Shown here: positions 14,864 to 61,822 of the stretch, in pieces | Position numbering within the stretch: position 1 is the first letter of the stretch | Layout: every line of letters starts with the position of its first letter | Assembly (NCBI GenBank): GCA_944329385.1 | Contig: CALVIE010000001.1 | Location: 2,168-66,167 of the forward strand | Source: an uncultured Bacilli bacterium | GTDB taxonomy: Bacteria > Bacillota_I > Bacilli_A > RF39 > UBA660 | Direction of reading: 5' to 3' | Length of the DNA: 64,000 nt | Position numbers and translations under genes: made by a program | Notes under the pieces: generated by a model | What the model saw: only the letters and a program-made list of their open reading frames with translations | Told to the model about the DNA's origin: nothing | Database searches by the model: none

Positions 14864-15808
14864 TTATGATTCAATGATAAATGGATTTGTTTTACTACCA
14901 TATCCACTTAACTGTAATCCTGATTTTATGTGAACTACTGGGAAAGATGTTTCATAGGGATTATTACTCATCCTTACAGTTGTTAATGATCCTAAGTAAA
15001 AAACCCAATGATAATCATTGTTATCTTTATAATGATTTAGCAGCCATCCAAGACTGGGAATACCCCAACCTTTATTTGACACATAATTTATCCAAGTAGT
15101 ACCACCACAATTTGAACCGTAATAACTTACATTATTTGGAAAATTAGCGCAGGCTAATCTGGTATTTGTTCTAAGGAATTCTGTAACAGTGAGTATCGCT
15201 ACTTTTCCGTTCCATTTACTTGTTTTTTCGCTTTGAACAGCCAATTGCAAATTTGTTTCTGTTTTAGTACCTAAATTACCTACATTGAAATTTCTAGCAA
15301 CTATTAAATTTTTTGCTGTAGTAGAAAGATTATTATAATATGTTCCATTTAAATATGTATTTACGTTTGAGTTAGTCCAAGTGGTGTTTCCCCAAGAAGT
15401 AGTATTAGTACTACTTGATGCTCCAGTTTCAGTTAAATTTATAATTTTCATTGTTCCGTCTTTTTCTATTGATAGTATTCGCCATTCTTCATTGTTAAAT
15501 GTAATATAATTATCTACATAATTGCCTCTATAAATATATCTACCTTCTTCATATTCATCCGCATATAGTCCAGATCCAGTTGTAACTACTAAATCTTTTA
15601 ACTTAGAAGAAGTTATAGTTGAACTATCAGCTTTTTTGTAAAGTTCATCTATAGCATCTTGAACATTGGTTGCATTAAGTCCACTTGCTTTATTATCATA
15701 TGTTGTTTGATTTGACGGAAAATATGTTACAGCCGATATGCTTACTGTTCCAACAATTATTGCTGTTAATAGGCATAAAAAGCATCTATTTTTTAAAATT
15801 TTTTTCAT
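14864..15808 (-). CDS. secreted paralog-family protein P1 (divergent member; DUF6273-like core?)
   Basis: Signal peptide/TM, then the conserved block VTYFPSNQTTYDNKASGLNATNVQDAIDELY shared with 39399..40328, 44795..45741, 59484..60437 and the remnant at 30304..30606. The middle is N/T/S/W/Y-rich, and the C-terminus GSKTNPFIIES is related to the GDGSxNPY end of the other copies. Confidence 0.6.
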   Translation of the reverse strand: MKKILKNRCFLCLLTAIIVGTVSISAVTYFPSNQTTYDNKASGLNATNVQDAIDELYKKADSSTITSSKLKDLVVTTGSGLYADEYEEGRYIYRGNYVDNYITFNNEEWRILSIEKDGTMKIINLTETGASSSTNTTSWGNTTWTNSNVNTYLNGTYYNNLSTTAKNLIVARNFNVGNLGTKTETNLQLAVQSEKTSKWNGKVAILTVTEFLRTNTRLACANFPNNVSYYGSNCGGTTWINYVSNKGWGIPSLGWLLNHYKDNNDYHWVFYLGSLTTVRMSNNPYETSFPVVHIKSGLQLSGYGSKTNPFIIES

Positions 15809-15907
15809 GACTACCCTCCTATTTTATTTTTTTGTTATTTTTTGTAACTTATTTTAAGTTATAAAACAATAACCTGTTTTAAGTTATTGTAAAATCAAAT
15901 CGGAGGT

Positions 15908-16129
15908 TTGCTTATGAATAGACTTAGAGATTTAAGGGAGGACCACGATTTATTACAAAAGGATATTGCCAAAATACTTGGGATGTCACAGACTGGATAT
16001 TCACAGTATGAAACTGAAACTAATGATATTCCAACGGCTATTTTAAAAAAACTAGCAATTTATTATAATACAAGTATTGATTATATTTTATGTATGACTA
16101 ATGAGAAAAAACCTTATCCAAAAAAATAA
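15908..16129 (+). CDS. XRE-family helix-turn-helix transcriptional regulator
   Basis: LLQKDIAKILGMSQTGYSQYETETNDIPTAILKKLAIYYNTSIDYIL is a canonical XRE HTH; it is divergent from P1. Confidence 0.6.
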   Translation: MLMNRLRDLREDHDLLQKDIAKILGMSQTGYSQYETETNDIPTAILKKLAIYYNTSIDYILCMTNEKKPYPKK

Positions 16130-28816: not shown

Positions 28817-29767
28817 TTATGATTTTATATTTTGAATTGTTTTTTCATCTAAACCTGTTAATCTAGAAATATCAGATATTTTCATTTTTTCTTTTAACAT
28901 ATTTTTAGCAATTTCTAATGCTTTTACTTTTGATCCTTGTTCAATTCCCTGTTCAATTCCAAGTTCTCTTCCTTGTTCAATTCCAAGTTCTCTTCCTTGT
29001 TCTAGGCCTTCTTTTACTGCTTCATCATGATCAATTTTTTTCATCCATTCATCCATTTTTTCTTTGTCATATAAACCTATAATGTGTTCATCTTCATTTA
29101 AATCTTCAATTATTTTCGCCATATTTTCTAAGTCTTCATCTCCTTTAGATATTTCTTTTAACTGTTTTTTACTTGTTAATTGAAACATTACTAATACTTT
29201 CTCAATTTTTGAAAGTTCATTATTATTATAATACTTATCTAAAGGATTTGCCATATTTATATGGATTCTTTTAAAATTTTCTTCATCCGTAAATTTTCCT
29301 GTATCATCTTTCATACTAAATTCAATGAATAGTCGGTCATCAAATCTATTTATAACATTAAAGTTTAACTGTAATATTTCACTTTTATCCATTTTATTTC
29401 CTGATAAATATCTATCGTAGGCAATTTTATGATGATATACATTATTTTTGGCAATCATACTTGCTTTTGCAGTTTTATTGGCTTCAATATTTATTATTGT
29501 TCCTTCTACTTTTACTATAATATCAGTTATCTTTTTTCTTTCTTTATAATTTTCAAGTGGTAATTCTGTATTAGCAAACACTAGATTTTCAAAAATATAT
29601 CCTGGTGAATAAACAGTGACATGACTTATGATCAAAGATAGTAATTTTCTAAATTTTGGATTTTGAACAATGGATTTAAATATTGGATCAAACATTGATG
29701 TTATGAGTGTATCTGGATTTTTCTTTGTTTCAGGTTTAATACTTGTTTTTGTCATATACTCCTCCAT
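28817..29767 (-). CDS. Rpn-family recombination-promoting nuclease / putative transposase (PD-(D/E)XK, Transposase_31/YhgA-like), copy 1
   Basis: N-terminal DPIFKSIVQNP...DIIVKVEGTIINIEANK core plus C-terminal EQG repeats (LEQGRELGIEQGRELGIEQGIEQG) and the tail IAKNMLKEKMKISDISRLTGL. The tail is nearly identical to that of 43657..44556. Confidence 0.7.
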   Translation of the reverse strand: MEEYMTKTSIKPETKKNPDTLITSMFDPIFKSIVQNPKFRKLLSLIISHVTVYSPGYIFENLVFANTELPLENYKERKKITDIIVKVEGTIINIEANKTAKASMIAKNNVYHHKIAYDRYLSGNKMDKSEILQLNFNVINRFDDRLFIEFSMKDDTGKFTDEENFKRIHINMANPLDKYYNNNELSKIEKVLVMFQLTSKKQLKEISKGDEDLENMAKIIEDLNEDEHIIGLYDKEKMDEWMKKIDHDEAVKEGLEQGRELGIEQGRELGIEQGIEQGSKVKALEIAKNMLKEKMKISDISRLTGLDEKTIQNIKS

Positions 29768-30303: not shown

Positions 30304-30606
30304 ATGGATATTTAGAAAAGTGGTTAGTTTTTTAAAAAGAATATTTTAGGTATTATTATTGGTGGAGTAATATTTGGAAGTTTAGGTGTTTGTGCGGCCA
30401 CCTATTTTCCTAGTAATAATGTAACATACGAAAACAAAAATAGTGGTTTAAAAAGTACTGATGTCCAAGGGGCGATAGATGAACTTTATACAGCTTGCTC
30501 AGAGCTAGCGACTCCGCCAACTCTAGGTGATACAATACTAGAAGATGTGCCAATAGTATCGTCAGGCGATGGTTCTCAAGAGAATCCATTTAATATTTCT
30601 TTATGA
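30304..30606 (+). pseudogene. degenerate remnant of the secreted paralog family, with N- and C-terminal conserved blocks fused and in-frame stops near the start
   Basis: ATG GAT ATT TAG ... then GIIIGGVIFGSLGVCAATYFPSNNVTYENKNSGLKSTDVQGAIDELYTACSELATPPTLGDTILEDVPIVSSGDGSQENPFNISL*. A 67-nt block at 30424-30489 is about 99% identical to P2 at 40151-40217. Confidence 0.5.
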
Positions 30607-39398: not shown

Positions 39399-40328
39399 TT
39401 ATTCAATGCGATAAGGATTATTTTGCGAGCCATCGCCCCCAGTGATTTTAATTTTACTAGACAAATATACGGATGGACGGACTGCAACCGTTTCATTATT
39501 GAGAACATAAGTGCCGCCACCAGCAGAAGTAATAATGAACCCGTTGTAATTGATACCACGACGAGGTGATAACGTCCACCAGCTACTAATATTATTACTT
39601 TGCATCCATGTTGTATTCATACAATTCCTATTTTCTTCATTTGATGCAAATGTTCTACAGCTGCTATTACTATTACTTCTTATATATTCACTCATTGTTA
39701 TTAAGGCAACTTTTCCGTTCCACTTACTACTATTTTCATATGTTATTTGTGAACTCATACTTGATTCAGCATAATTAATAGCTCCTATACTCCAATTTTT
39801 TGAAACAATCTGTCCTTGGGCTGTCTGATTCAAAGTTTCTGTTAAGTAACTTCCATTTAAATACGTGTTCAAATCGGATGGGCGTGCCCAGTTATTTGAG
39901 CCATTGGCTCCTCCTCCTTCATCCCACGCCATATTTCCTATACTTGCTTCTCTCATTATTTTTATGGTTTTATCATTTTCAATAGATACTATTCTCCATA
40001 TCTCATTATTAAATATTATATAATTATTTGGGTTTGTTCCTCTATAAAAATATCTATCTTCATATTCATCTTTATATAAACCATCACCAGATGACACTAT
40101 ATCCACTTTGTCAAGTATTGCTTCTCCTCCTGTTTTAGGTAAACATACATTATAAAGTTCATCTATCGCGCCTTGGACATCAGTACTTTTTAAACCACTA
40201 TTTTTGTTTTCGTATGTTACTAAATTACTATCAAAATATGTTACTGCTGATACTACTGATATACATATTAAAAAACTAAGTGTTAGTCCTATCATATATT
40301 TTTTTATAAATTCTTTTATTTTTTTCAT
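39399..40328 (-). CDS. secreted paralog-family protein P2 (best intact copy)
   Basis: MKKIKEFIKKYMIGLTLSFLICISVVSA signal, then VTYFDSNLVTYENKNSGLKSTDVQGAIDELY; core with FYRGTNPNNYIIFNNEIWRIVSIENDKTIKIM, KWNGKVALITMSEYIRSNSN and SWWTLSPRRG; C-terminus VRPSVYLSSKIKITGGDGSQNNPYRIE. Confidence 0.6.
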   Translation of the reverse strand: MKKIKEFIKKYMIGLTLSFLICISVVSAVTYFDSNLVTYENKNSGLKSTDVQGAIDELYNVCLPKTGGEAILDKVDIVSSGDGLYKDEYEDRYFYRGTNPNNYIIFNNEIWRIVSIENDKTIKIMREASIGNMAWDEGGGANGSNNWARPSDLNTYLNGSYLTETLNQTAQGQIVSKNWSIGAINYAESSMSSQITYENSSKWNGKVALITMSEYIRSNSNSSCRTFASNEENRNCMNTTWMQSNNISSWWTLSPRRGINYNGFIITSAGGGTYVLNNETVAVRPSVYLSSKIKITGGDGSQNNPYRIE

Positions 40329-40447
40329 ATCATCCCTACTTTCTATTTTAAGTTTATTATATCACAAAAATTATGTTTTGTATTACATTTTGTGTAACTT
40401 ACTAATAGTATTACAAAAATTTATAATTTGAATAGTGAGGTGATATA

Positions 40448-40630
40448 ATGAAGGAGTTTAAACTACCTAAGGTTGAAGATGAACAATCAGTTTTAAAAAC
40501 TATTAGAATTAAATTTACAACTTTAAAAAAGATAGAAGATTTATCTAAGGAAAGTCATTTATCGGTTAATAGAATTATTAATGAATGTATTGAGTTTGCA
40601 CTTAATAATTTAGACATAAAAAAGGATTAA
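40448..40630 (+). CDS. small ribbon-helix-helix (CopG/Arc-like) DNA-binding protein
   Basis: 60 aa; a beta-strand-like KTIRIKF followed by two helices (LKKIEDLSKESHLSVNRIINECIEFAL). It is divergent from P2, with AT-rich repeats (GTATTACA x2) in the intergenic region. Confidence 0.4.
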   Translation: MKEFKLPKVEDEQSVLKTIRIKFTTLKKIEDLSKESHLSVNRIINECIEFALNNLDIKKD

Positions 40631-43656: not shown

Positions 43657-44556
43657 TTAATCAGTAGTTTTTAATTTTTGAATATCTGTTTCAGTTAGAT
43701 TTGTTAATCTAGAAATAGTTTTAATATCCATTTTCTCTTTAAGCATGTTTTTAGCTATTTGAATATTTCTTTCATTGATACCTTGCTTAACTCCTTGTTC
43801 AAAACCTTCTTGTTTGGCACCTTCCATTTCATTTTGTTTAACTAAAGCGTCCATCTTATCCTTTTGCCATTCATGTAATATAAATTCATCATTATTCATC
43901 TTTATCATAGTCTCCATTAATCTATTAACCTCTTTTTCATCAAGTATCTGCCTAGATAACTCATATAGTTCACTAAATGTTTGTGCTATAAGCATCGTAT
44001 ACCATATAATTTCTTTTGTTTTAACACCTTCATTATAATATAGTTTACTATAAAGTTCAAGGCTCTTTAAAAATATCCTTTTATTACTAGGATAGACTTT
44101 TTGAGTGAGTAATCCATATGGGACAATGATGTCTTCTAGATCTTCTTCAAATGGACTTATATTAAGATTAAGCTGAATATTGTTTATTTCTTTTATACTT
44201 TTTCCTTTTTCAAATATTATGGTCGCTATTTTATCTAAATAATTAAAATTTCTTTCCATTACATACTCAAATTTACTTCTATTCATCTCTATATCAATAA
44301 AGATTTTATCATTAATAGATACAATAATATCCACCATTTTTTTACGTTCATTTTTATTAGTTATAGGATGTTCACTATCCAAAATTCTAATTTTATCATC
44401 TTTAGATATTTCCATTTTTAAACTGGCATTTAATAAATCTACAAGTAAGTTTAAATTTAATTTAAAAACGTTTTTAAAAACAAGGTCATAAGATAAAGGT
44501 ATCATATCTAATTTTTCATCTAACTTTAATAAATATTCTTTAGTTATTGTTTCCAT
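43657..44556 (-). CDS. Rpn-family recombination-promoting nuclease / putative transposase (PD-(D/E)XK), copy 2
   Basis: DLVFKNVFKLNLNLL...DIIVSINDKIFIDIEMNRSKF core; C-terminal EGAKQEGFEQGVKQG repeats and the tail IAKNMLKEKMDIKTISRLTNL, nearly identical to copy 1. Confidence 0.7.
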   Translation of the reverse strand: METITKEYLLKLDEKLDMIPLSYDLVFKNVFKLNLNLLVDLLNASLKMEISKDDKIRILDSEHPITNKNERKKMVDIIVSINDKIFIDIEMNRSKFEYVMERNFNYLDKIATIIFEKGKSIKEINNIQLNLNISPFEEDLEDIIVPYGLLTQKVYPSNKRIFLKSLELYSKLYYNEGVKTKEIIWYTMLIAQTFSELYELSRQILDEKEVNRLMETMIKMNNDEFILHEWQKDKMDALVKQNEMEGAKQEGFEQGVKQGINERNIQIAKNMLKEKMDIKTISRLTNLTETDIQKLKTTD

Positions 44557-44794: not shown

Positions 44795-45741
44795 TTATCC
44801 TAAAGTATATGGGCTTGATGAACTTCCATTTCCTCCTGTAATTTGGACACTAGACGATAGATAGACGGCCGGACGGACCGCACCGGTCGTATTGTTAGCG
44901 TAGACGTAGTTGACGTAGCCGTACGAAAGCACGCCGAACACGTAGTTAGAGTCACCGGCAAGAGGCGACAAAGTCCACCAATAGTCATTTATATACATCC
45001 AGCTGCTATTTTGACATGTACTATAATTATCATTTATTTTACTAAATGTTCCACAGCTACTTTGATTACTATTACTTCTTAGATATTCACTCATTGTTAT
45101 TAGGGCTACTTTTCCATTCCATGTTGTTGCTTTCTCATCATCTATTTGATCTCCCAAGTTATTATTATCCCATGTTGCTGAACCTATATTCCAATTTTTT
45201 GCAACAATTTGGCTTTGGGCTGTCGCATTTAATGTTCCTGTCAAATAACTTCCATTTAAATATGTATTCAAATCGGCTGGACGTTTCCAGTTATTGGAAC
45301 CATAGGTTCCTCCTCCTGCATCCCATGCTATATCCCCTATACTTGCATTCCTCATTATTTTGATTGTTTTATCTGGCTCTATTGACACTATTCTCCATAC
45401 CTCATTATTAAATGTTATATACTTATTTACATTGGCTCCTCTATAAAAATATCTTCCTTCTTCATAAGTATCTTCGTATAATCCGTCACCTGATGTTACT
45501 ATATCTACACTGTCTAAGATAGTATCCCCAGGAGCTGGGACTTTTGTACATTCTTCGTATAGTTCATCTATGGCTTCTTGGACATTTTTTGAAGCAAGAC
45601 CACTTGATTTATTTTCATAACTAACATCTTTTGAATTAAATGTTACTGTGGCATATACGCCTATGCTGCCAAATAGTATTAGTCCTATGACAAAACTTAT
45701 TAGATTTTTTTCACATAATATTTCATTTTTTCTTTCTTCAT
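44795..45741 (-). pseudogene. secreted paralog-family protein P3, interrupted by a frameshift in an A7 tract within the signal-peptide region (candidate phase-variable OFF state)
   Basis: ATG AAG AAA GAA AAA ATG AAA TAT TAT GTG AAA AAA ATC TAA. With A8 the frame continues as MKKEKMKYYVKKNLISFVIGLILFGSIGVYATVTFNSKDVSYENKSSGLASKNVQEAIDELYEE...FYRGANVNKYITFNNEVWRIVSIEPDKTIKIM... into the listed 44795..45388 ORF, which ends with YWWTLSPLAGD...VRPAVYLSSSVQITGGNGSSSSPYTLG. Confidence 0.5.
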
Positions 45742-45851
45742 TGTACTTTCTCCTATTTTTAATTTTTTCTTAGTTTTATTATATCATATTTTTGTCCTAA
45801 TAGGACAAAAATATTCATTTTAATTAAGCTATCATTTAATTAGGTGATAAC

Positions 45852-46088
45852 ATGGATGATAATTTAAGCAATTATTACTGCAATTTAGTTAAGAAAAATT
45901 TAAAGAGATTAAAAAATGAAAGAAATTGGAGCATTACTAAAATGGCTTTAGTTTTAGGACTTAGTGAAAGTTATTTAGGACATTTACTTAGTTTAAAATC
46001 GCCTAAAACTCCATCTATTCAATTACTTGGGGCAATTTGTGGAAGAGCAAATGTTCAAATTACTTATTTTTTTGAAAACGAAAAATAG
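45852..46088 (+). CDS. HTH (XRE-like) DNA-binding protein
   Basis: WSITKMALVLGLSESYLGHLLSLKSP is a helix-turn-helix; the gene is divergent from P3 across an intergenic region containing a 29-bp perfect palindrome. Confidence 0.5.
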   Translation: MDDNLSNYYCNLVKKNLKRLKNERNWSITKMALVLGLSESYLGHLLSLKSPKTPSIQLLGAICGRANVQITYFFENEK

Positions 46089-46100
46089 ACCATTTGGGGT

Positions 46101-46811
46101 CTATTTTATTTTAAGAACAAGTTTTTTTACATCTTCATCTTTGACTGATTCGGTTAAGGACATTCCTTTTAAACTTTTATAAAATCCACACATAGTGTTT
46201 GTTTCAATGTTTGAACGCTGTTTTAAAAATTCGGCAAAGCTGTCATAGTCTTGTGAGTTAATAAAATCATAGTATTCATCAGTATCTTCTTTAGTAATAA
46301 TTACTGGAGCTAGTCCTTCTTTCCAAAGATTAGCTGTTAAAATTAGTTTCGCACTTCTTTTATTACCATCTTCTAGCGGATGAATACGCATATATTTAAT
46401 GTTAAACATGGCTTCTCTTAGGAATGGATCTATTTCGTTCCAAGTATGATAATATTGATAAAACAACATATTTAAGGCGTTTGGTATTTGGTTTGGAGCA
46501 ATTGGATCAAATGTGGCTTTAGTACCAGCTGTGACACCAATACGTCTTAAGCCTTTTGGCACTTCATAACTTTCGTTAATAATATTGCCTACTGTTTTAA
46601 TATTTCCTAAGTTTAAATAATCAGTGTCACAAATCAGATAAGAAAGTGCTTCTAGGATATTTAACATTAAATGAGTACGTTGTTCTGGGTTTAAATCTTC
46701 TAATTCAGCTACACTATAGACAAAACGTTCTACAAAGAAATTAGTATATCTTTCTACTATAGATTGATCTGTTATTTGTGGATTTTCATTTATGATTAGT
46801 TCTTCTGACAT
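46101..46811 (-). CDS. Fic/Doc (Fido) family protein
   Basis: HPLEDGNKRSAKL matches the Fic active-site motif HPFx(D/E)GNGR (HPxxDGNxR). Confidence 0.8.
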   Translation of the reverse strand: MSEELIINENPQITDQSIVERYTNFFVERFVYSVAELEDLNPEQRTHLMLNILEALSYLICDTDYLNLGNIKTVGNIINESYEVPKGLRRIGVTAGTKATFDPIAPNQIPNALNMLFYQYYHTWNEIDPFLREAMFNIKYMRIHPLEDGNKRSAKLILTANLWKEGLAPVIITKEDTDEYYDFINSQDYDSFAEFLKQRSNIETNTMCGFYKSLKGMSLTESVKDEDVKKLVLKIK

Positions 46812-59483: not shown

Positions 59484-60437
59484 TTATTTAGAACTTAATT
59501 GATACGGATTATCCTGGCTTCCATCTCCTCCGGTAATTTGGACTGATGATGAAAGTGTTACTACAGGTCGAACACCATAGCTACTTGAATAATTAGAATT
59601 AATGTGTCCGGAACTATCCACACGGTATGCATAACTTCCACTCATGATTGACAGTGTCCACCATGAATCATTTATATACATCCAACTAGTACTTTGACAC
59701 TTAGTATAATTATTATTATTTATATAAAAGGTTCCACAGTTACTTTTATCACTATTACTTCTTATATATTCCGAAACTGTTGCTAAAGCAACTTTCCCAT
59801 TCCACTTTTTATTGTTTTCAACATTTATTTGATTTTCTAAATCTGTATTAAAATTTCCTACAGGTCCTATACTATAATCGCTTGTAATTATTTGATTTTG
59901 GGCTACGCTAGTTAAATTATTATAATATGTTCCATTTAAATATGTATTTAATGTGGCTGGGCGAGTCCAATTATTATTATTTGATGAATCCCATTCCATG
60001 TTTTCTATACTTTCATATTTCATTATCTTGATACTTCCATCTGAATTTATAGATATAATTCTCCAACCAGCAATTTCTCCATTAAAGGTTACATAATTAT
60101 TTGGATTTGCTCCTTTATATGTATATTTTCCATTTTCATATTCATCTTCATATAAGCCATTTCCTTCTGTTACTATATCTATCTCGTCTAATATTGCATC
60201 TCCACCTGTTTTAGGCGGAAAACATACATTATAAAGTTCATCTATGGCTGTTTGAATATTATTTGATGTCATTCCTGTTGTTTCATTACTATATGTTACA
60301 TTTTTACTATCAAAATATGTTATAGCTGATACTGCTGATATACATATTAAGAAACTAAATGGTGTAGGATAAAGGGAATTAAAGTTACAATGGAAAAGAA
60401 AAAAAGTTAGAAATAGATGTTCATTATGGAACATCAA
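59484..60437 (-). CDS. secreted paralog-family protein P4 (altered N-terminus, in an operon with upstream membrane proteins)
   Basis: ...SFLICISAVSAITYFDSKNVTYSNETTGMTSNNIQTAIDELY; core with KYTYKGANPNNYVTFNGEIAGWRIISINSDGSIKIM, KWNGKVALATVSEYIRSNSD and SWWTLSIMSGS; C-terminus VRPVVTLSSSVQITGGDGSQDNPYQL. The N-terminus lacks the MKK n-region of P2 despite near-identical DNA from TTAATATGTATATCAG onward. Confidence 0.6.
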   Translation of the reverse strand: MMFHNEHLFLTFFLFHCNFNSLYPTPFSFLICISAVSAITYFDSKNVTYSNETTGMTSNNIQTAIDELYNVCFPPKTGGDAILDEIDIVTEGNGLYEDEYENGKYTYKGANPNNYVTFNGEIAGWRIISINSDGSIKIMKYESIENMEWDSSNNNNWTRPATLNTYLNGTYYNNLTSVAQNQIITSDYSIGPVGNFNTDLENQINVENNKKWNGKVALATVSEYIRSNSDKSNCGTFYINNNNYTKCQSTSWMYINDSWWTLSIMSGSYAYRVDSSGHINSNYSSSYGVRPVVTLSSSVQITGGDGSQDNPYQLSSK

Positions 60438-60442
60438 AATAC

Positions 60443-61822
60443 CTAACTTTTTTTATACTTAAATTTATAGGTTACGTCTAATTTATAGTTTTCATTTGAT
60501 GCGAATTCTGGAATAGACATTTTTACTTCTTCTTCAAATTCTTTTCTAGTTAAAGGATTTTTTAAGACTTTTAATGATATCATTTCATATTGTGTTCGAA
60601 ATCTAGTCATTATTTTTCTTTCTTCTAGACGATATTCTTGGTTTGCTGCATTAACATCGCTTTCTGGTTCCCAGTTTGTTGGATTGCCTAGAACTTCAGT
60701 TTCTCTATCTTTATATGGTTGGTTTTTTGGAGCTGTTGATTTTTCACTGCTATATTTTCTTTTTGTTCCATTATACCAGCGCCACTGTTTATCTTTATAA
60801 CGATATAGTGTTGCAGTATCTTCATCTTTTTGATCATATTTATCAGTGTTTACTTCTTCTCTTGCACTATATTTTCCACTATTATAATATATTTTTTCGC
60901 CTTTTTCATTTAAATAATAAAATTTATATCCTGTCGTTTGGGTTATGGTTCTATAATCTTTTTCGGCTGGATAATTTAATGAATATTCTGACCAGTTGGT
61001 TTCTATTTCACTATTTTCATCTTTATTTGCATAACCAGCAGGTTGCTCTGATGAAAAATCTGAATAATCACCTTTAATATCATACCATTTCCAACGGCGG
61101 TCGCGATAACGATAGTAGTATGTACTGTCACTTTCAATATTAATTATTTTAGCTTCGGTTGGTATTTTTGGAATATCTTCCATATCCATTGGTAATCTAA
61201 TACCATATTCAGATATTTCATCTTGCAGTTCGCTATCATCAAAATAATCTGACCACTTTGTTGTACTTACTTCACGATCATAATAATTATAATATGGTAT
61301 AACATCAATTATAGCTTTACCAGACGGATATGATGATTGTTCACTACTCCAAGAGCCATATTTTACATTTACAGAACATTGTCCGCAGTTTCTAGCATTT
61401 ACAGTATATATGTAATCTTTTTTATATTTGGTAATTTTAATATCTCCTGAACATACTTGATTATCAGTTTTTCCAGTATTTATATAACCGTCATCATACA
61501 TATCATTTAATTGTATTGTGACACTTTCTCCTTCTAAATTTGGAACGGTTCCTTCATCTTTAGCATAGTTTAAGCTAGCAGATTTTAAATTATTATAGAT
61601 TTTTAAGCAGCCATTATTTTTAAAAGCGGTAACAACAATTATAATAATTATTACTATTGGTAAAATAGTTCCAAAGACAAAGAAAAAGTTTAATATAGGC
61701 TTTTTGCTTTCGAAGCTTCTATCAACGATATTTCCTTCTTTATCGACGTAAGTCTGTCGTTTCATGATATCACCCCTTGTATAATATAATTTTAGCACAT
61801 TTAAGTATATTTTCAAATACAA
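60443..61822 (-). CDS. hypothetical single-pass membrane protein with repeated YRY(R/K)D(R/K)xW(K/R)WY motifs
   Basis: Probable start MKRQTYVD; TM at about aa 45-66; two copies of YRYRDRRWKWY / YRYKDKQWRWY; 6-nt gap to the P4 start. Confidence 0.5.
   Translation of the reverse strand: MYLKIYLNVLKLYYTRGDIMKRQTYVDKEGNIVDRSFESKKPILNFFFVFGTILPIVIIIIIVVTAFKNNGCLKIYNNLKSASLNYAKDEGTVPNLEGESVTIQLNDMYDDGYINTGKTDNQVCSGDIKITKYKKDYIYTVNARNCGQCSVNVKYGSWSSEQSSYPSGKAIIDVIPYYNYYDREVSTTKWSDYFDDSELQDEISEYGIRLPMDMEDIPKIPTEAKIINIESDSTYYYRYRDRRWKWYDIKGDYSDFSSEQPAGYANKDENSEIETNWSEYSLNYPAEKDYRTITQTTGYKFYYLNEKGEKIYYNSGKYSAREEVNTDKYDQKDEDTATLYRYKDKQWRWYNGTKRKYSSEKSTAPKNQPYKDRETEVLGNPTNWEPESDVNAANQEYRLEERKIMTRFRTQYEMISLKVLKNPLTRKEFEEEVKMSIPEFASNENYKLDVTYKFKYKKS

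What the first reader, a model, noticed from the sequence alone, without database searches (positions are those of the whole stretch)
45786..45814. Perfect 29-bp palindrome between divergent P3 and its HTH gene (operator candidate)
ATATTTTTGTCCTA-A-TAGGACAAAAATAT has 14-bp perfect arms around a single central base. It sits in the 110-bp intergenic region between the P3 start (45741) and the HTH start (45852). This is an ideal dimeric HTH operator positioned to control one or both divergent promoters.
Basis: seen in the sequence. Interest (0 to 1): 0.55.

Follow-up and report, generated by a model that had tools for sequence, protein, structure and literature searches.

The report
Conserved operator of a small repressor
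The 29-bp palindrome is real and is almost certainly the DNA site where the small helix-turn-helix protein encoded next to it binds to control its own gene and a divergent surface-protein gene; this is an ordinary kind of bacterial switch, seen here in an uncultured gut-type Bacilli lineage.

Summary
ATATTTTTGTCCTA-A-TAGGACAAAAATAT lies at 45786-45814. It is the longest perfect inverted repeat in the window and sits in the 110-bp gap between a DUF6273 gene (-) and a 78-aa XRE/HTH_3 gene (+).

The operator reading is supported by comparison:
- In 31 related loci from uncultured Bacilli, every homologue of the HTH gene has the motif TTGYYCTA-N-TAGRRCAA. Its centre is 52±1 bp before the ATG (32 bp in one lineage).
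- The motif occurs nowhere else in 207 kb.
- The 21-bp core is 97% conserved where synonymous sites (dS 0.4-1.1) and the neighbouring 5'UTR (62%) have drifted.
- Only the inner ~11 bp of each arm are conserved. The outer ATAT is specific to this lineage.
- Distant HTH relatives keep the same layout with different symmetric half-sites (TTGCTGTA-T-TACGGCAA; TGCTTCTC-T-GAGAAGCA).
- Clades with a longer intergenic region carry two copies, one near each gene.
- A conserved extended -10 (TGnTATAAT) for the divergent gene abuts the palindrome.

The terminator or RNA-hairpin reading is not supported.

The likely mechanism is that an HTH dimer occludes back-to-back promoters. Binding itself is untested.

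This is a new member of a known kind, of modest interest. One side observation: the divergent gene is frameshifted in an A7 run in this window.

The parts
45786..45814 (.). Perfect 29-bp palindrome ATATTTTTGTCCTA-A-TAGGACAAAAATAT (14+1+14)
   Evidence: It is the longest perfect inverted repeat in the window.
45789..45811 (.). Conserved operator core TTTTTGTCCTA-A-TAGGACAAAAA. The half-sites are TTGTCCTA, and the GTCC and GGAC centres lie 9-10 bp apart.
   Evidence: Mean majority identity is 0.97 in 12 clade-A sequences, against 0.62 for the P3 5'UTR. The invariant columns are listed. The motif is found only here in the window and in 31 loci.
45778..45786 (-). Extended -10 promoter element TGATATAAT for the divergent DUF6273 gene. 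Its TG overlaps the first base of the palindrome.
   Evidence: Read directly from the sequence. TGnTATAAT is conserved in all clade-A loci, and also in L018, L056 and L058. Block identity is 0.94. The promoter scan tool did not call it because no -35 hexamer matches.
45749..45754 (-). Shine-Dalgarno AGGAGA of the DUF6273 gene, 7 nt before the ATG at 45741
   Evidence: Sequence.
44795..45741 (-). DUF6273 membrane-anchored protein gene ('P3'), the presumed regulated target. In this window it is frameshifted at the A7 run (45705-45711).
   Evidence: Frames are shown. A8 in L001 restores the frame. A homologue sits divergent from the HTH gene in L001, L002, L006, L007/8, L011-13, L015, L021/23, L024-27 and L030.
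45852..46088 (+). 78-aa XRE/HTH_3 protein gene, the presumed cognate DNA-binding protein. Its SD AGGTGA is at 45842-45847.
45819..45835 (+). Two candidate -10 hexamers for the HTH gene: TTTAAT at 45819-45824 (TATAAT in L021, TCTAAT in L011) and TATCAT at 45830-45835 (TATTAT or TAAAAT in relatives). The transcription start is not known.
   Evidence: Alignment A2. Block identities are both 0.94. Neither was called by the consensus scan.
45821..45842 (+). Second, weaker inverted repeat TAATTAA-N8-TTAATTA that abuts the SD. It could be a 5'UTR hairpin or an auxiliary site. Its role is unresolved.
   Evidence: -5 kcal/mol, z -1.5 in the window. Hairpins of different sequence at the same position in L056, L058 and L059 give z -3 to -4.
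46082..46107 (.). Terminator-like hairpin shared by the convergent HTH and Fic genes. It marks the 3' end of the HTH transcription unit.

Best explanation
The palindrome is the operator of the 78-aa XRE-family helix-turn-helix protein encoded 38 bp downstream of it. A dimer of that protein most likely binds the two TTGTCCTA half-sites. Their recognition cores lie about one helical turn apart, so both face the same side of the DNA. The site lies between the -10 elements of two back-to-back promoters, centred about 30 bp upstream of the inferred start of the divergent DUF6273 gene and over the -35 position of the HTH gene's own promoter. Occupancy should therefore shut off the DUF6273 surface-protein gene and also limit synthesis of the regulator (negative autoregulation). 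What is shown: the palindrome, its conservation, its exclusive association with this gene family, the symmetric change of half-sites with protein divergence, and the conserved extended -10. What is inferred: physical binding, dimer stoichiometry, transcription start sites, the sign of regulation, and the signal that relieves it (the protein has no sensor domain).
For: (1) The palindrome is perfect and statistically unusual. (2) The adjacent ORF matches HTH_3 above Pfam's cut-off. It is under purifying selection with dN/dS 0.08-0.33 at dS 0.4-1.1. Its model has pLDDT 90 and a five-helix XRE fold, and the closest structures (CapH N-terminal domain, SinR bound to DNA, DdrO, C.BclI/C.AhdI/C.Esp1396I, ClgR) are dimeric proteins that bind palindromes. 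(3) In the window plus 31 loci (207 kb), TTGYYCTANTAGRRCAA with up to 2 mismatches occurs only upstream of the HTH gene. Its centre is 51-53 bp before the ATG (32 bp in L018). Second copies occur in the same intergenic region in the L015/L020/L031 clade. (4) The HTH gene and its palindrome appear in at least four unrelated genomic neighbourhoods, so the association is not just synteny. (5) Core identity is 0.97, against 0.62 for the adjacent 5'UTR at the same divergence. (6) The half-site co-varies with the protein while dyad symmetry and layout are kept. Examples are GTCC/GGAC in clade A; GCTC/GAGC and GTTC/GAAC in P0014/P0015 loci; a GTCC/GAGC hybrid in L018; TTGCTGTA-T-TACGGCAA in L056; TGCTTCTC-T-GAGAAGCA in L058; and a 13-bp-arm palindrome in L059. 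(7) Where the intergenic region is 250-290 bp rather than 110 bp, there are two operators, one near each gene. (8) TGnTATAAT on the minus strand directly abuts the palindrome in all lineages. (9) The half-site TTTGTYCT resembles the SinR inverted-repeat duplex TTTGTTCTCTAAAGAGAACTTA (PMC3163267), and SinR is among the best sequence and structure matches.
Against: No binding data exist. No transcription start is known, and the consensus promoter scan called no promoter in the gap. The -35 regions match consensus poorly, so the occlusion geometry rests on the -10 elements alone. The whole HTH-proximal half of the intergenic region is conserved in clade A (0.81-0.99), so within that clade the conservation is not unique to the palindrome. 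The argument for specificity depends on the more distant clades, which are few (about 6 independent operator variants). Only 64 kb of the source genome was available, so additional sites, which would indicate a regulon or a different regulator, cannot be excluded. In this window the presumed target gene is out of frame.
Confidence: 0.72

Rival explanations
1. The palindrome is a protein-binding site, but for a different regulator encoded elsewhere, such as a global factor, and not for the adjacent HTH protein.
For: Co-inheritance of a promoter region with its gene would also produce the observed linkage. Only 64 kb of the genome could be scanned for other copies.
Against: The half-site sequence changes together with the adjacent protein's sequence, across lineages and across genomic contexts. 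No other copy occurs in 207 kb of related DNA. A global regulator would be expected to have many sites and a stable motif.
Confidence: 0.1
2. The adjacent HTH protein does bind the palindrome, but it acts as an activator, or as a concentration-dependent activator and repressor like the restriction-modification controller proteins, rather than as a plain repressor.
For: C-proteins are among the structural matches. The -35 regions of both candidate promoters are poor, which is typical of promoters that depend on an activator. The L015 and L031 clades have two sites.
Against: The site is centred near -30 relative to the conserved extended -10. It overlaps the spacer and the -35 region, which is a position for occlusion. 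Extended -10 promoters (TGnTATAAT) usually do not need activation (established knowledge of sigma-70/SigA promoters).
Confidence: 0.1
3. The palindrome works as an RNA hairpin, either an intrinsic terminator or attenuator, or a 5'-terminal stabilising stem, and not as a DNA operator.
For: The terminator pattern scan flags it, with 13 pairs, a 3-nt loop and the tail TCATTTTAAT. The RNA fold is -18.1 kcal/mol with z = -7.3.
Against: It lies upstream of both start codons, and no co-directional gene ends there. The stem has only 3 G-C pairs. The T-rich tail is not conserved (GCGACATTATAAT in L021, TAACATTCTAAT in L011). Departures from symmetry give C·A mismatches on the + strand in some loci (L015 proximal, L018) and on the - strand in others (L007, L012), so no single transcript keeps pairing. 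The outer four pairs are not conserved. No Rfam family matches.
Confidence: 0.05
4. The palindrome is a chance sequence, or an AT-rich structural element (cruciform) with no sequence-specific function.
For: The genome is 28% G+C, and 2 of 100 Markov shuffles of the window give an arm of 14 or more somewhere.
Against: The core is conserved at 0.97 where dS is 0.4-1.1. Its position is fixed relative to the HTH ATG in 31 loci. Second copies are present in some lineages.
Confidence: 0.02

Closest known systems
SinR of Bacillus subtilis (N-terminal XRE domain bound to an inverted repeat of GTTCTYT; PDB 3ZKC, 3QQ6)
   Same: SinR is among the best PDB sequence hits (E about 1e-4) and structural hits (TM about 0.7-0.8). 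It shares the motifs SYL...PSIQ(L/F)L. It binds preferentially to an inverted repeat, TTTGTTCTCTAAAGAGAACTTA, whose half-site TTTGTTCT closely resembles this family's TTTGTYCT (PMC3163267).
   Different: The protein here has 78 aa and lacks SinR's C-terminal tetramerisation/SinI-binding domain. No SinI-like antagonist gene lies nearby. The half-sites are 3 bp closer together (GTCC..GGAC spans 13 bp, against 16 bp in the SinR duplex). It has a single local target rather than a biofilm regulon.
Restriction-modification controller (C) proteins: C.AhdI, C.BclI, C.Esp1396I and their C-box operators
   Same: They are stand-alone XRE dimers of about 75-80 aa. They bind palindromic operators immediately upstream of their own gene, overlapping the promoter, and are autoregulatory. 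They appear as structural matches.
   Different: No restriction or methylase genes occur in any of the contexts examined. The operator sequence is unrelated to C-boxes. There is one dyad here rather than the usual paired OL/OR, except in the L015 and L031 clades. Sequence similarity is weak (E 0.5-0.8).
CylR2 of Enterococcus faecalis (66-aa XRE dimer that binds a 22-bp inverted repeat in the cytolysin promoter region)
   Same: It is a minimal XRE dimer without a sensor domain that represses a neighbouring promoter through an inverted repeat of about 20 bp (own knowledge). It appears as a weak PDB sequence hit.
   Different: The sequence relationship is only marginal (E about 0.7-0.8). CylR2 works with the membrane protein CylR1, and no such partner is evident here. 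The regulated gene is a DUF6273 protein rather than a lantibiotic-type cytolysin.
Phage 434 Cro/cI-type repressor-operator pairs
   Same: They share the five-helix HTH_3 fold. A dimer binds a dyad-symmetric operator that overlaps divergent promoters.
   Different: There is no phage context: tblastn against phage and plasmid collections and the viral contig scan found nothing. There is a single operator rather than a tripartite one. There is no cI/Cro pair.

Membership tests
XRE / Cro-C1 (Pfam HTH_3) DNA-binding proteins (the adjacent protein) | Significant match to the HTH_3 profile | tested here: met
   PF01381 scores 24.1 bits against a cut-off of 23, E=3.8e-5, over residues 17-73.
XRE / Cro-C1 (Pfam HTH_3) DNA-binding proteins (the adjacent protein) | Five-helix bundle with helix 2-turn-helix 3 | tested here: met
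   The AF2 model has pLDDT 90.4 with helices at 2-23, 28-35, 39-46, 56-66 and 70-74. Foldseek top hits are all XRE domains with TM 0.6-0.8.
XRE / Cro-C1 (Pfam HTH_3) DNA-binding proteins (the adjacent protein) | Dimerises on, and specifically binds, dyad-symmetric DNA | not testable with these tools
   This needs EMSA, footprinting or a structure of the complex.
Operator of a dimeric HTH regulator (the palindrome) | Dyad symmetry with half-site cores about one helical turn apart | tested here: met
   The arms are perfect, 14+1+14. The GTCC and GGAC centres are 9-10 bp apart.
Operator of a dimeric HTH regulator (the palindrome) | Conserved above the neutral expectation in orthologous regions | tested here: met
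   Core identity is 0.97, against 0.62 for the adjacent 5'UTR, with dS of the HTH gene at 0.4-1.1. The motif is found in all 31 loci at a fixed offset.
Operator of a dimeric HTH regulator (the palindrome) | Site sequence co-varies with the cognate regulator while symmetry is kept | tested here: met
   About six half-site variants were found across protein clades. The number of independent lineages is small.
Operator of a dimeric HTH regulator (the palindrome) | Overlaps core promoter elements of the regulated gene(s) | tested here: inconclusive
   A conserved TGnTATAAT abuts the left arm. However, no start site is mapped, and the consensus scan called no promoter for lack of a -35 match.
Operator of a dimeric HTH regulator (the palindrome) | Bound by the regulator, with an effect on transcription | not testable with these tools
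   This can only be shown by experiment.
Rho-independent terminator | G+C-rich hairpin followed by a conserved U tract at the 3' end of a transcription unit | tested here: not met
   The pattern is matched in the window only. There are 3 G-C pairs in 13. The tail is not conserved. The element lies 5' of both genes. Mismatches are inconsistent between strands.
R-M controller protein / C-box system | Linked restriction endonuclease and methyltransferase genes | tested here: not met
   None is present in the window neighbourhood or in any of the related contexts.
SinR/SinI system | C-terminal oligomerisation domain and a SinI-type antagonist | tested here: not met
   The protein ends at residue 78. 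The alignment to SinR covers only SinR residues 3-73. No small SinI-like gene is adjacent.
Known RNA families (Rfam 15) | Covariance-model match | tested here: not met
   No match at E<=1 in 45300-46300.

The most novel reading that the evidence does not exclude
The palindrome is one of several private repressor-operator pairs, each gating one member of a multi-copy family of membrane-anchored DUF6273 surface proteins in small-genome uncultured Bacilli. In the window these are an HTH for P3, a different HTH with tandem palindromes for the copy at 14864-15808, and a small RHH-like ORF for the copy at 39399-40328. A slippage-prone A-run in the 5' coding region and neighbouring Rpn-type recombination nucleases would add to this. 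Together they would form a system for switching or varying which surface protein is displayed.
Probability: 0.12. Interest if true: 0.55.

Novelty: new member of a known kind. Interest (0 to 1): 0.3.

Why it matters
The result gives a concrete, testable regulator-operator pair (protein 45852-46088; site TTTTTGTCCTA-N-TAGGACAAAAA) for a DUF6273 gene. DUF6273 is a domain of unknown function, found here in membrane-anchored proteins and mentioned in the literature mainly in connection with phage receptor-binding and hypervariable proteins (titles found). The regulator family is very small: about 3 clusters at 50% identity below E=1e-20 among 1.8 billion representatives. It comes with a natural series of operator variants, which could serve as a compact model of how XRE recognition helices and half-sites co-evolve. 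Otherwise this is a textbook arrangement and changes no general view.

Tried and rejected
(1) Terminator or RNA hairpin. This was rejected on position, weak G-C content, a non-conserved tail and strand-inconsistent mismatches.

(2) Further copies of the motif. There are none in the window with up to 3 mismatches and none outside the HTH upstream region in 207 kb.

(3) Scan of JGI metagenome contigs with TTTTGYYCTANTAGRRCAAAA. It gave 21 hits of mixed G+C, none next to an HTH or DUF6273 homologue, so these are chance matches. That collection evidently does not contain this lineage. The viral contig scan gave 0 hits.

(4) Phage or plasmid origin of the HTH gene. There was no tblastn match in either collection.

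(5) Functional pairing of the HTH with the convergent Fic gene, as a toxin-antitoxin or defence module. Fic matches the PADLOC candidate PDC-S04. It is a neighbour only in the window/L007 type of context and is absent in L011, L015 and L021, so it is not the conserved partner.

(6) Literature search for the motif string found nothing.

(7) Placing the HTH promoter. Two conserved -10-like hexamers are candidates, and neither has a convincing -35. This is left open.

(8) A MerR-like reading, with the dyad inside a 19-bp spacer between TTGTCC and TATAAT on the minus strand. It was considered only as a matter of geometry. The protein is XRE-type and not MerR-type, so this was not pursued.

Full report
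**Observation**

The window reads ATATTTTTGTCCTA-A-TAGGACAAAAATAT at 45786-45814. The arms are 14 nt, perfectly complementary, around one central base.

- It is the longest perfect inverted repeat in the 64-kb window.
- The other long inverted repeats are AAAA...TTTT-flanked hairpins at gene ends.
- Only 2 of 100 Markov shuffles of the window produced an arm of 14 or more anywhere.
- The 17-mer TTGTCCTANTAGGACAA occurs once in the window, even with 3 mismatches allowed.
- The window has 28% G+C.

**Surroundings**

- On the + strand, an ORF at 45852-46088 encodes 78 aa. It has an AGGTGA Shine-Dalgarno at 45842-45847 and a terminator-like hairpin at 46082-46107.
- On the - strand, an ATG at 45741 is preceded by AGGAGA (45749-45754) and opens a DUF6273 gene with an N-terminal membrane anchor.
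- In this window that frame stops after 13 codons and continues in another frame. The near-identical contig L001 has A8 where the window has A7 (45705-45711), which restores a 315-aa protein. L002 and L006 have the run interrupted by G.

**The adjacent protein**

- It matches Pfam HTH_3 above the gathering threshold.
- Its database relatives are few. There are 20 clusters at 90% identity in 5.8 billion proteins. In an exhaustive profile search of 1.8 billion representatives, only about three 50%-identity clusters fall below E=1e-20.
- dN/dS against seven homologues is 0.08-0.33, at dS 0.4-1.1, so it is a real, constrained gene.
- An AlphaFold2 model (pLDDT 90.4) has the five helices of an XRE domain.
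- The best PDB matches by fold are CapH-NTD, an HTH_3 regulator from Vibrio, SinR bound to DNA, DdrO, C.BclI, C.AhdI, C.Esp1396I and ClgR.
- The best PDB matches by sequence are 9sf2 (a phage repressor), 7t5u (CapH) and SinR.
- All of these are proteins that bind dyad-symmetric DNA as dimers.
- There is no second domain, and so no evident sensor.

**Comparative evidence**

Contigs that encode the same or related HTH proteins were fetched. The genome-collection hits are all MAGs labelled 'uncultured Bacilli bacterium'.

The HTH gene occurs in at least four different neighbourhoods:
- PBP1A-[Rpn]-DUF6273-HTH-Fic-SDR-PTAC (the window, L007)
- FemAB-DUF6273-HTH-YebC-RNase III (L011-14)
- integrase-DUF6273(717 aa)-HTH-HTH-MgsA (L015-17)
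- transposase-DUF6273(460 aa)-HTH-Rpn_C (L021-23)

In all of them it lies divergent from a DUF6273 homologue. The DUF6273 proteins are only 35-51% identical to P3, while the HTH proteins are 78-88% identical.

A scan of the window plus 31 loci (207 kb) for TTGYYCTANTAGRRCAA, with up to 2 mismatches, finds the motif in every locus.
- It is always upstream of the HTH gene, with its centre 51-53 bp before the ATG (32 bp in L018, which has a 20-bp deletion).
- It is found nowhere else, except as a second copy in the same intergenic region in the L015/L020/L031 clade.

An alignment of 15 distinct intergenic regions shows invariant columns concentrated in TTTTG..CTA.T.G..A and in the ribosome-binding site.

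Mean majority identity in the 12 clade-A sequences:

| Region | Identity |
|---|---|
| 21-bp palindrome core | 0.97 |
| Outer four positions of each arm | 0.67-0.69 |
| DUF6273 5'UTR | 0.62 |

So the functional unit is TTTTTGTCCTA-N-TAGGACAAAAA. The perfect 14-bp arms are a local accident.

**Co-variation with the protein**

| Protein / locus | Recognition helix | Site |
|---|---|---|
| Clade A | SESYLGHLLS | TTGTCCTA-W-TAGGACAA (occasionally TGGGACAA) |
| P0014/P0015 | SEGYLGHLLS | TTGCTCTA-A-TAGAACAA, TTGCTCTA-A-TGGAGCAA, TTGTTCTA-A-TAGGACA, TTGCTCTA-C-AAGAACAA |
| P0016 | not noted | hybrid TTGTCCTA-T-TAGAGCAA |
| P0022 | SESHVSSLLS | TTGCTGTA-T-TACGGCAA |
| P0021 | SEGYLNSLLS | CTGCTTCTC-T-GAGAAGCAA |
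| P0143 | not noted | TTAATCTTCGC-TAT-AAGCGAAGATTAA |

- In L056 and L058 the dyad again directly follows a minus-strand TGnTATAAT and lies 52-56 bp before the HTH ATG.
- One high-G+C relative (P0140, Ruminococcaceae) has lost this layout and follows DegV by 22 bp.

Pair counting on 17 site instances gives 81% symmetric cells, against 46-54% for slid controls. Double changes occur at half-site positions 4 and 5.

Asymmetric instances give C·A mismatches on the + strand in some loci and on the - strand in others. A dsDNA site read by a protein tolerant of Y at those positions would behave this way. An RNA stem would not.

**Promoter geometry**

- The minus-strand sequence TGATATAAT (45786-45778) is a perfect extended -10. 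TGnTATAAT is conserved in every lineage.
- With a start about 7 nt downstream (about 45771), the palindrome centre (45800) lies near -29. The dyad then covers the spacer and the -35 position.
- For the HTH gene, two conserved -10-like hexamers are candidates: T(T/A/C)TAAT at 45819-45824 and TAT(C/T)AT at 45830-45835.
- With the first candidate, the dyad centre is near -31, which mirrors the other promoter.
- Neither promoter has a good -35, and the consensus scan called none. These placements are therefore inferences.
- In clades with 250-290-bp intergenic regions there are two operators, one 60-80 bp upstream of the DUF6273 start and one at the usual distance from the HTH start. This fits control of both genes.

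**Mechanism proposed**

A dimer of the 78-aa protein binds the dyad and occludes RNA polymerase at the back-to-back promoters. This represses the DUF6273 gene and autoregulates the HTH gene. My confidence that this is the cognate operator and that it is repressive is about 0.7.

**Rivals**

- The same binding but activation, or biphasic control as in C-proteins: 0.1.
- A site for another regulator: 0.1.
- An RNA hairpin or terminator: 0.05. The scan flags it and it folds at -18 kcal/mol. But it lies 5' of both genes, has 3 G-C pairs, has no conserved U tract and has no Rfam match.
- Chance: 0.02.

**Comparison with known systems**

- It works like the minimal XRE dimers: the SinR N-terminal domain, 434 Cro, CylR2 and the R-M controller proteins.
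- The half-site TTTGTYCT is close to the SinR inverted-repeat duplex TTTGTTCTCTAAAGAGAACTTA (PMC3163267), but the half-sites are 3 bp closer together.
- It is not a member of the SinR/SinI system, because it has no oligomerisation domain and no SinI-like gene nearby.
- It is not a C-protein system, because there are no R-M genes.
- It is not phage-derived as far as the collections show.

**Verdict**

This is a new member of a known kind, of modest interest (0.3).

The more interesting possibility is weakly supported. Several DUF6273 paralogues in the window each have their own divergent small regulator and repeats. One copy carries a homopolymer frameshift. Rpn-type nuclease genes flank two copies. 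Together these hint at a regulated, perhaps variable, repertoire of surface proteins.

Noticed in passing
window 45705-45711 (within the DUF6273 gene 44795-45741, - strand): The DUF6273 gene is out of frame after codon 13 because of an A7 run on the coding strand. Contig L001 has A8 and an intact frame, and L002 and L006 have the run interrupted by G. This could be an assembly error, a pseudogene or slipped-strand switching.
   Followed up: partly
window 14864-15808 (-), 15908-16129 (+), intergenic 15840-15890: A second DUF6273 paralogue (36% identical to P3) is also divergent from a small HTH_3 gene (E=2.5e-12). The gap holds two palindromic 18-nt units, TAACTTATTTTAAGTTAT, spaced 25 bp apart. 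This is the same design with a different regulator and operator.
   Followed up: partly
window 39399-40328 (-), 40448-40630 (+), intergenic 40329-40447: A third DUF6273 paralogue (58% identical to P3) is divergent from a 60-aa ORF. That ORF has no Pfam hit, a weak sub-threshold NCBIfam match to the BfmA N-terminal domain, and looks like a ribbon-helix-helix protein. The gap starts with the same TTTATTATATCA (extended -10) as the P3 gap and contains GTATTACA twice plus an 18-nt imperfect inverted repeat.
   Followed up: partly
window 59484-60437 (-) and 30328-30591 (+): There are two further DUF6273 copies. One has an aberrant N-terminus (TTG start, no MKK...anchor start) and abuts the 459-aa gene at 60443-61822. 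The other is a non-ORF remnant of the N-terminal 85 residues.
   Followed up: no
window 43657-44556 (-) and 28817-29767 (-): PD-(D/E)XK_2 / Rpn-like 'recombination-promoting nuclease' genes lie next to P3 and next to the DUF6273 remnant. An HTH_Rpn_C fragment also lies next to the HTH gene in L021-L023. The syntenic locus L007 lacks the Rpn gene between PBP1A and the DUF6273 gene.
   Followed up: no
window 46101-46811 (-): The Fic-domain gene convergent with the HTH gene matches the PADLOC candidate defence family PDC-S04 (E=4.6e-20) and SoFic. In L007 the homologous position holds a 414-aa Fic protein that overlaps the HTH stop codon. Fic is absent from the other contexts.
   Followed up: partly
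window 45821-45842; L056 2965-2995; L058 142-163; L059 2969-2999: A second inverted repeat lies immediately upstream of, or overlapping, the HTH gene's Shine-Dalgarno. It is weak in the window clade (TAATTAA-N8-TTAATTA, -5 kcal/mol). In distant relatives it is clear and has a different sequence (z -3 to -4). It may be an SD-masking 5'UTR hairpin or an auxiliary operator.
   Followed up: partly
L029 2600-3240 (MAG CALVRA010000007.1): In this 95%-identical relative, the DUF6273 gene is reduced to short remnants and the HTH gene is frameshifted in A-runs, yet the palindrome and the extended -10 are intact. Either the module is decaying or the assembly has homopolymer errors.
   Followed up: no
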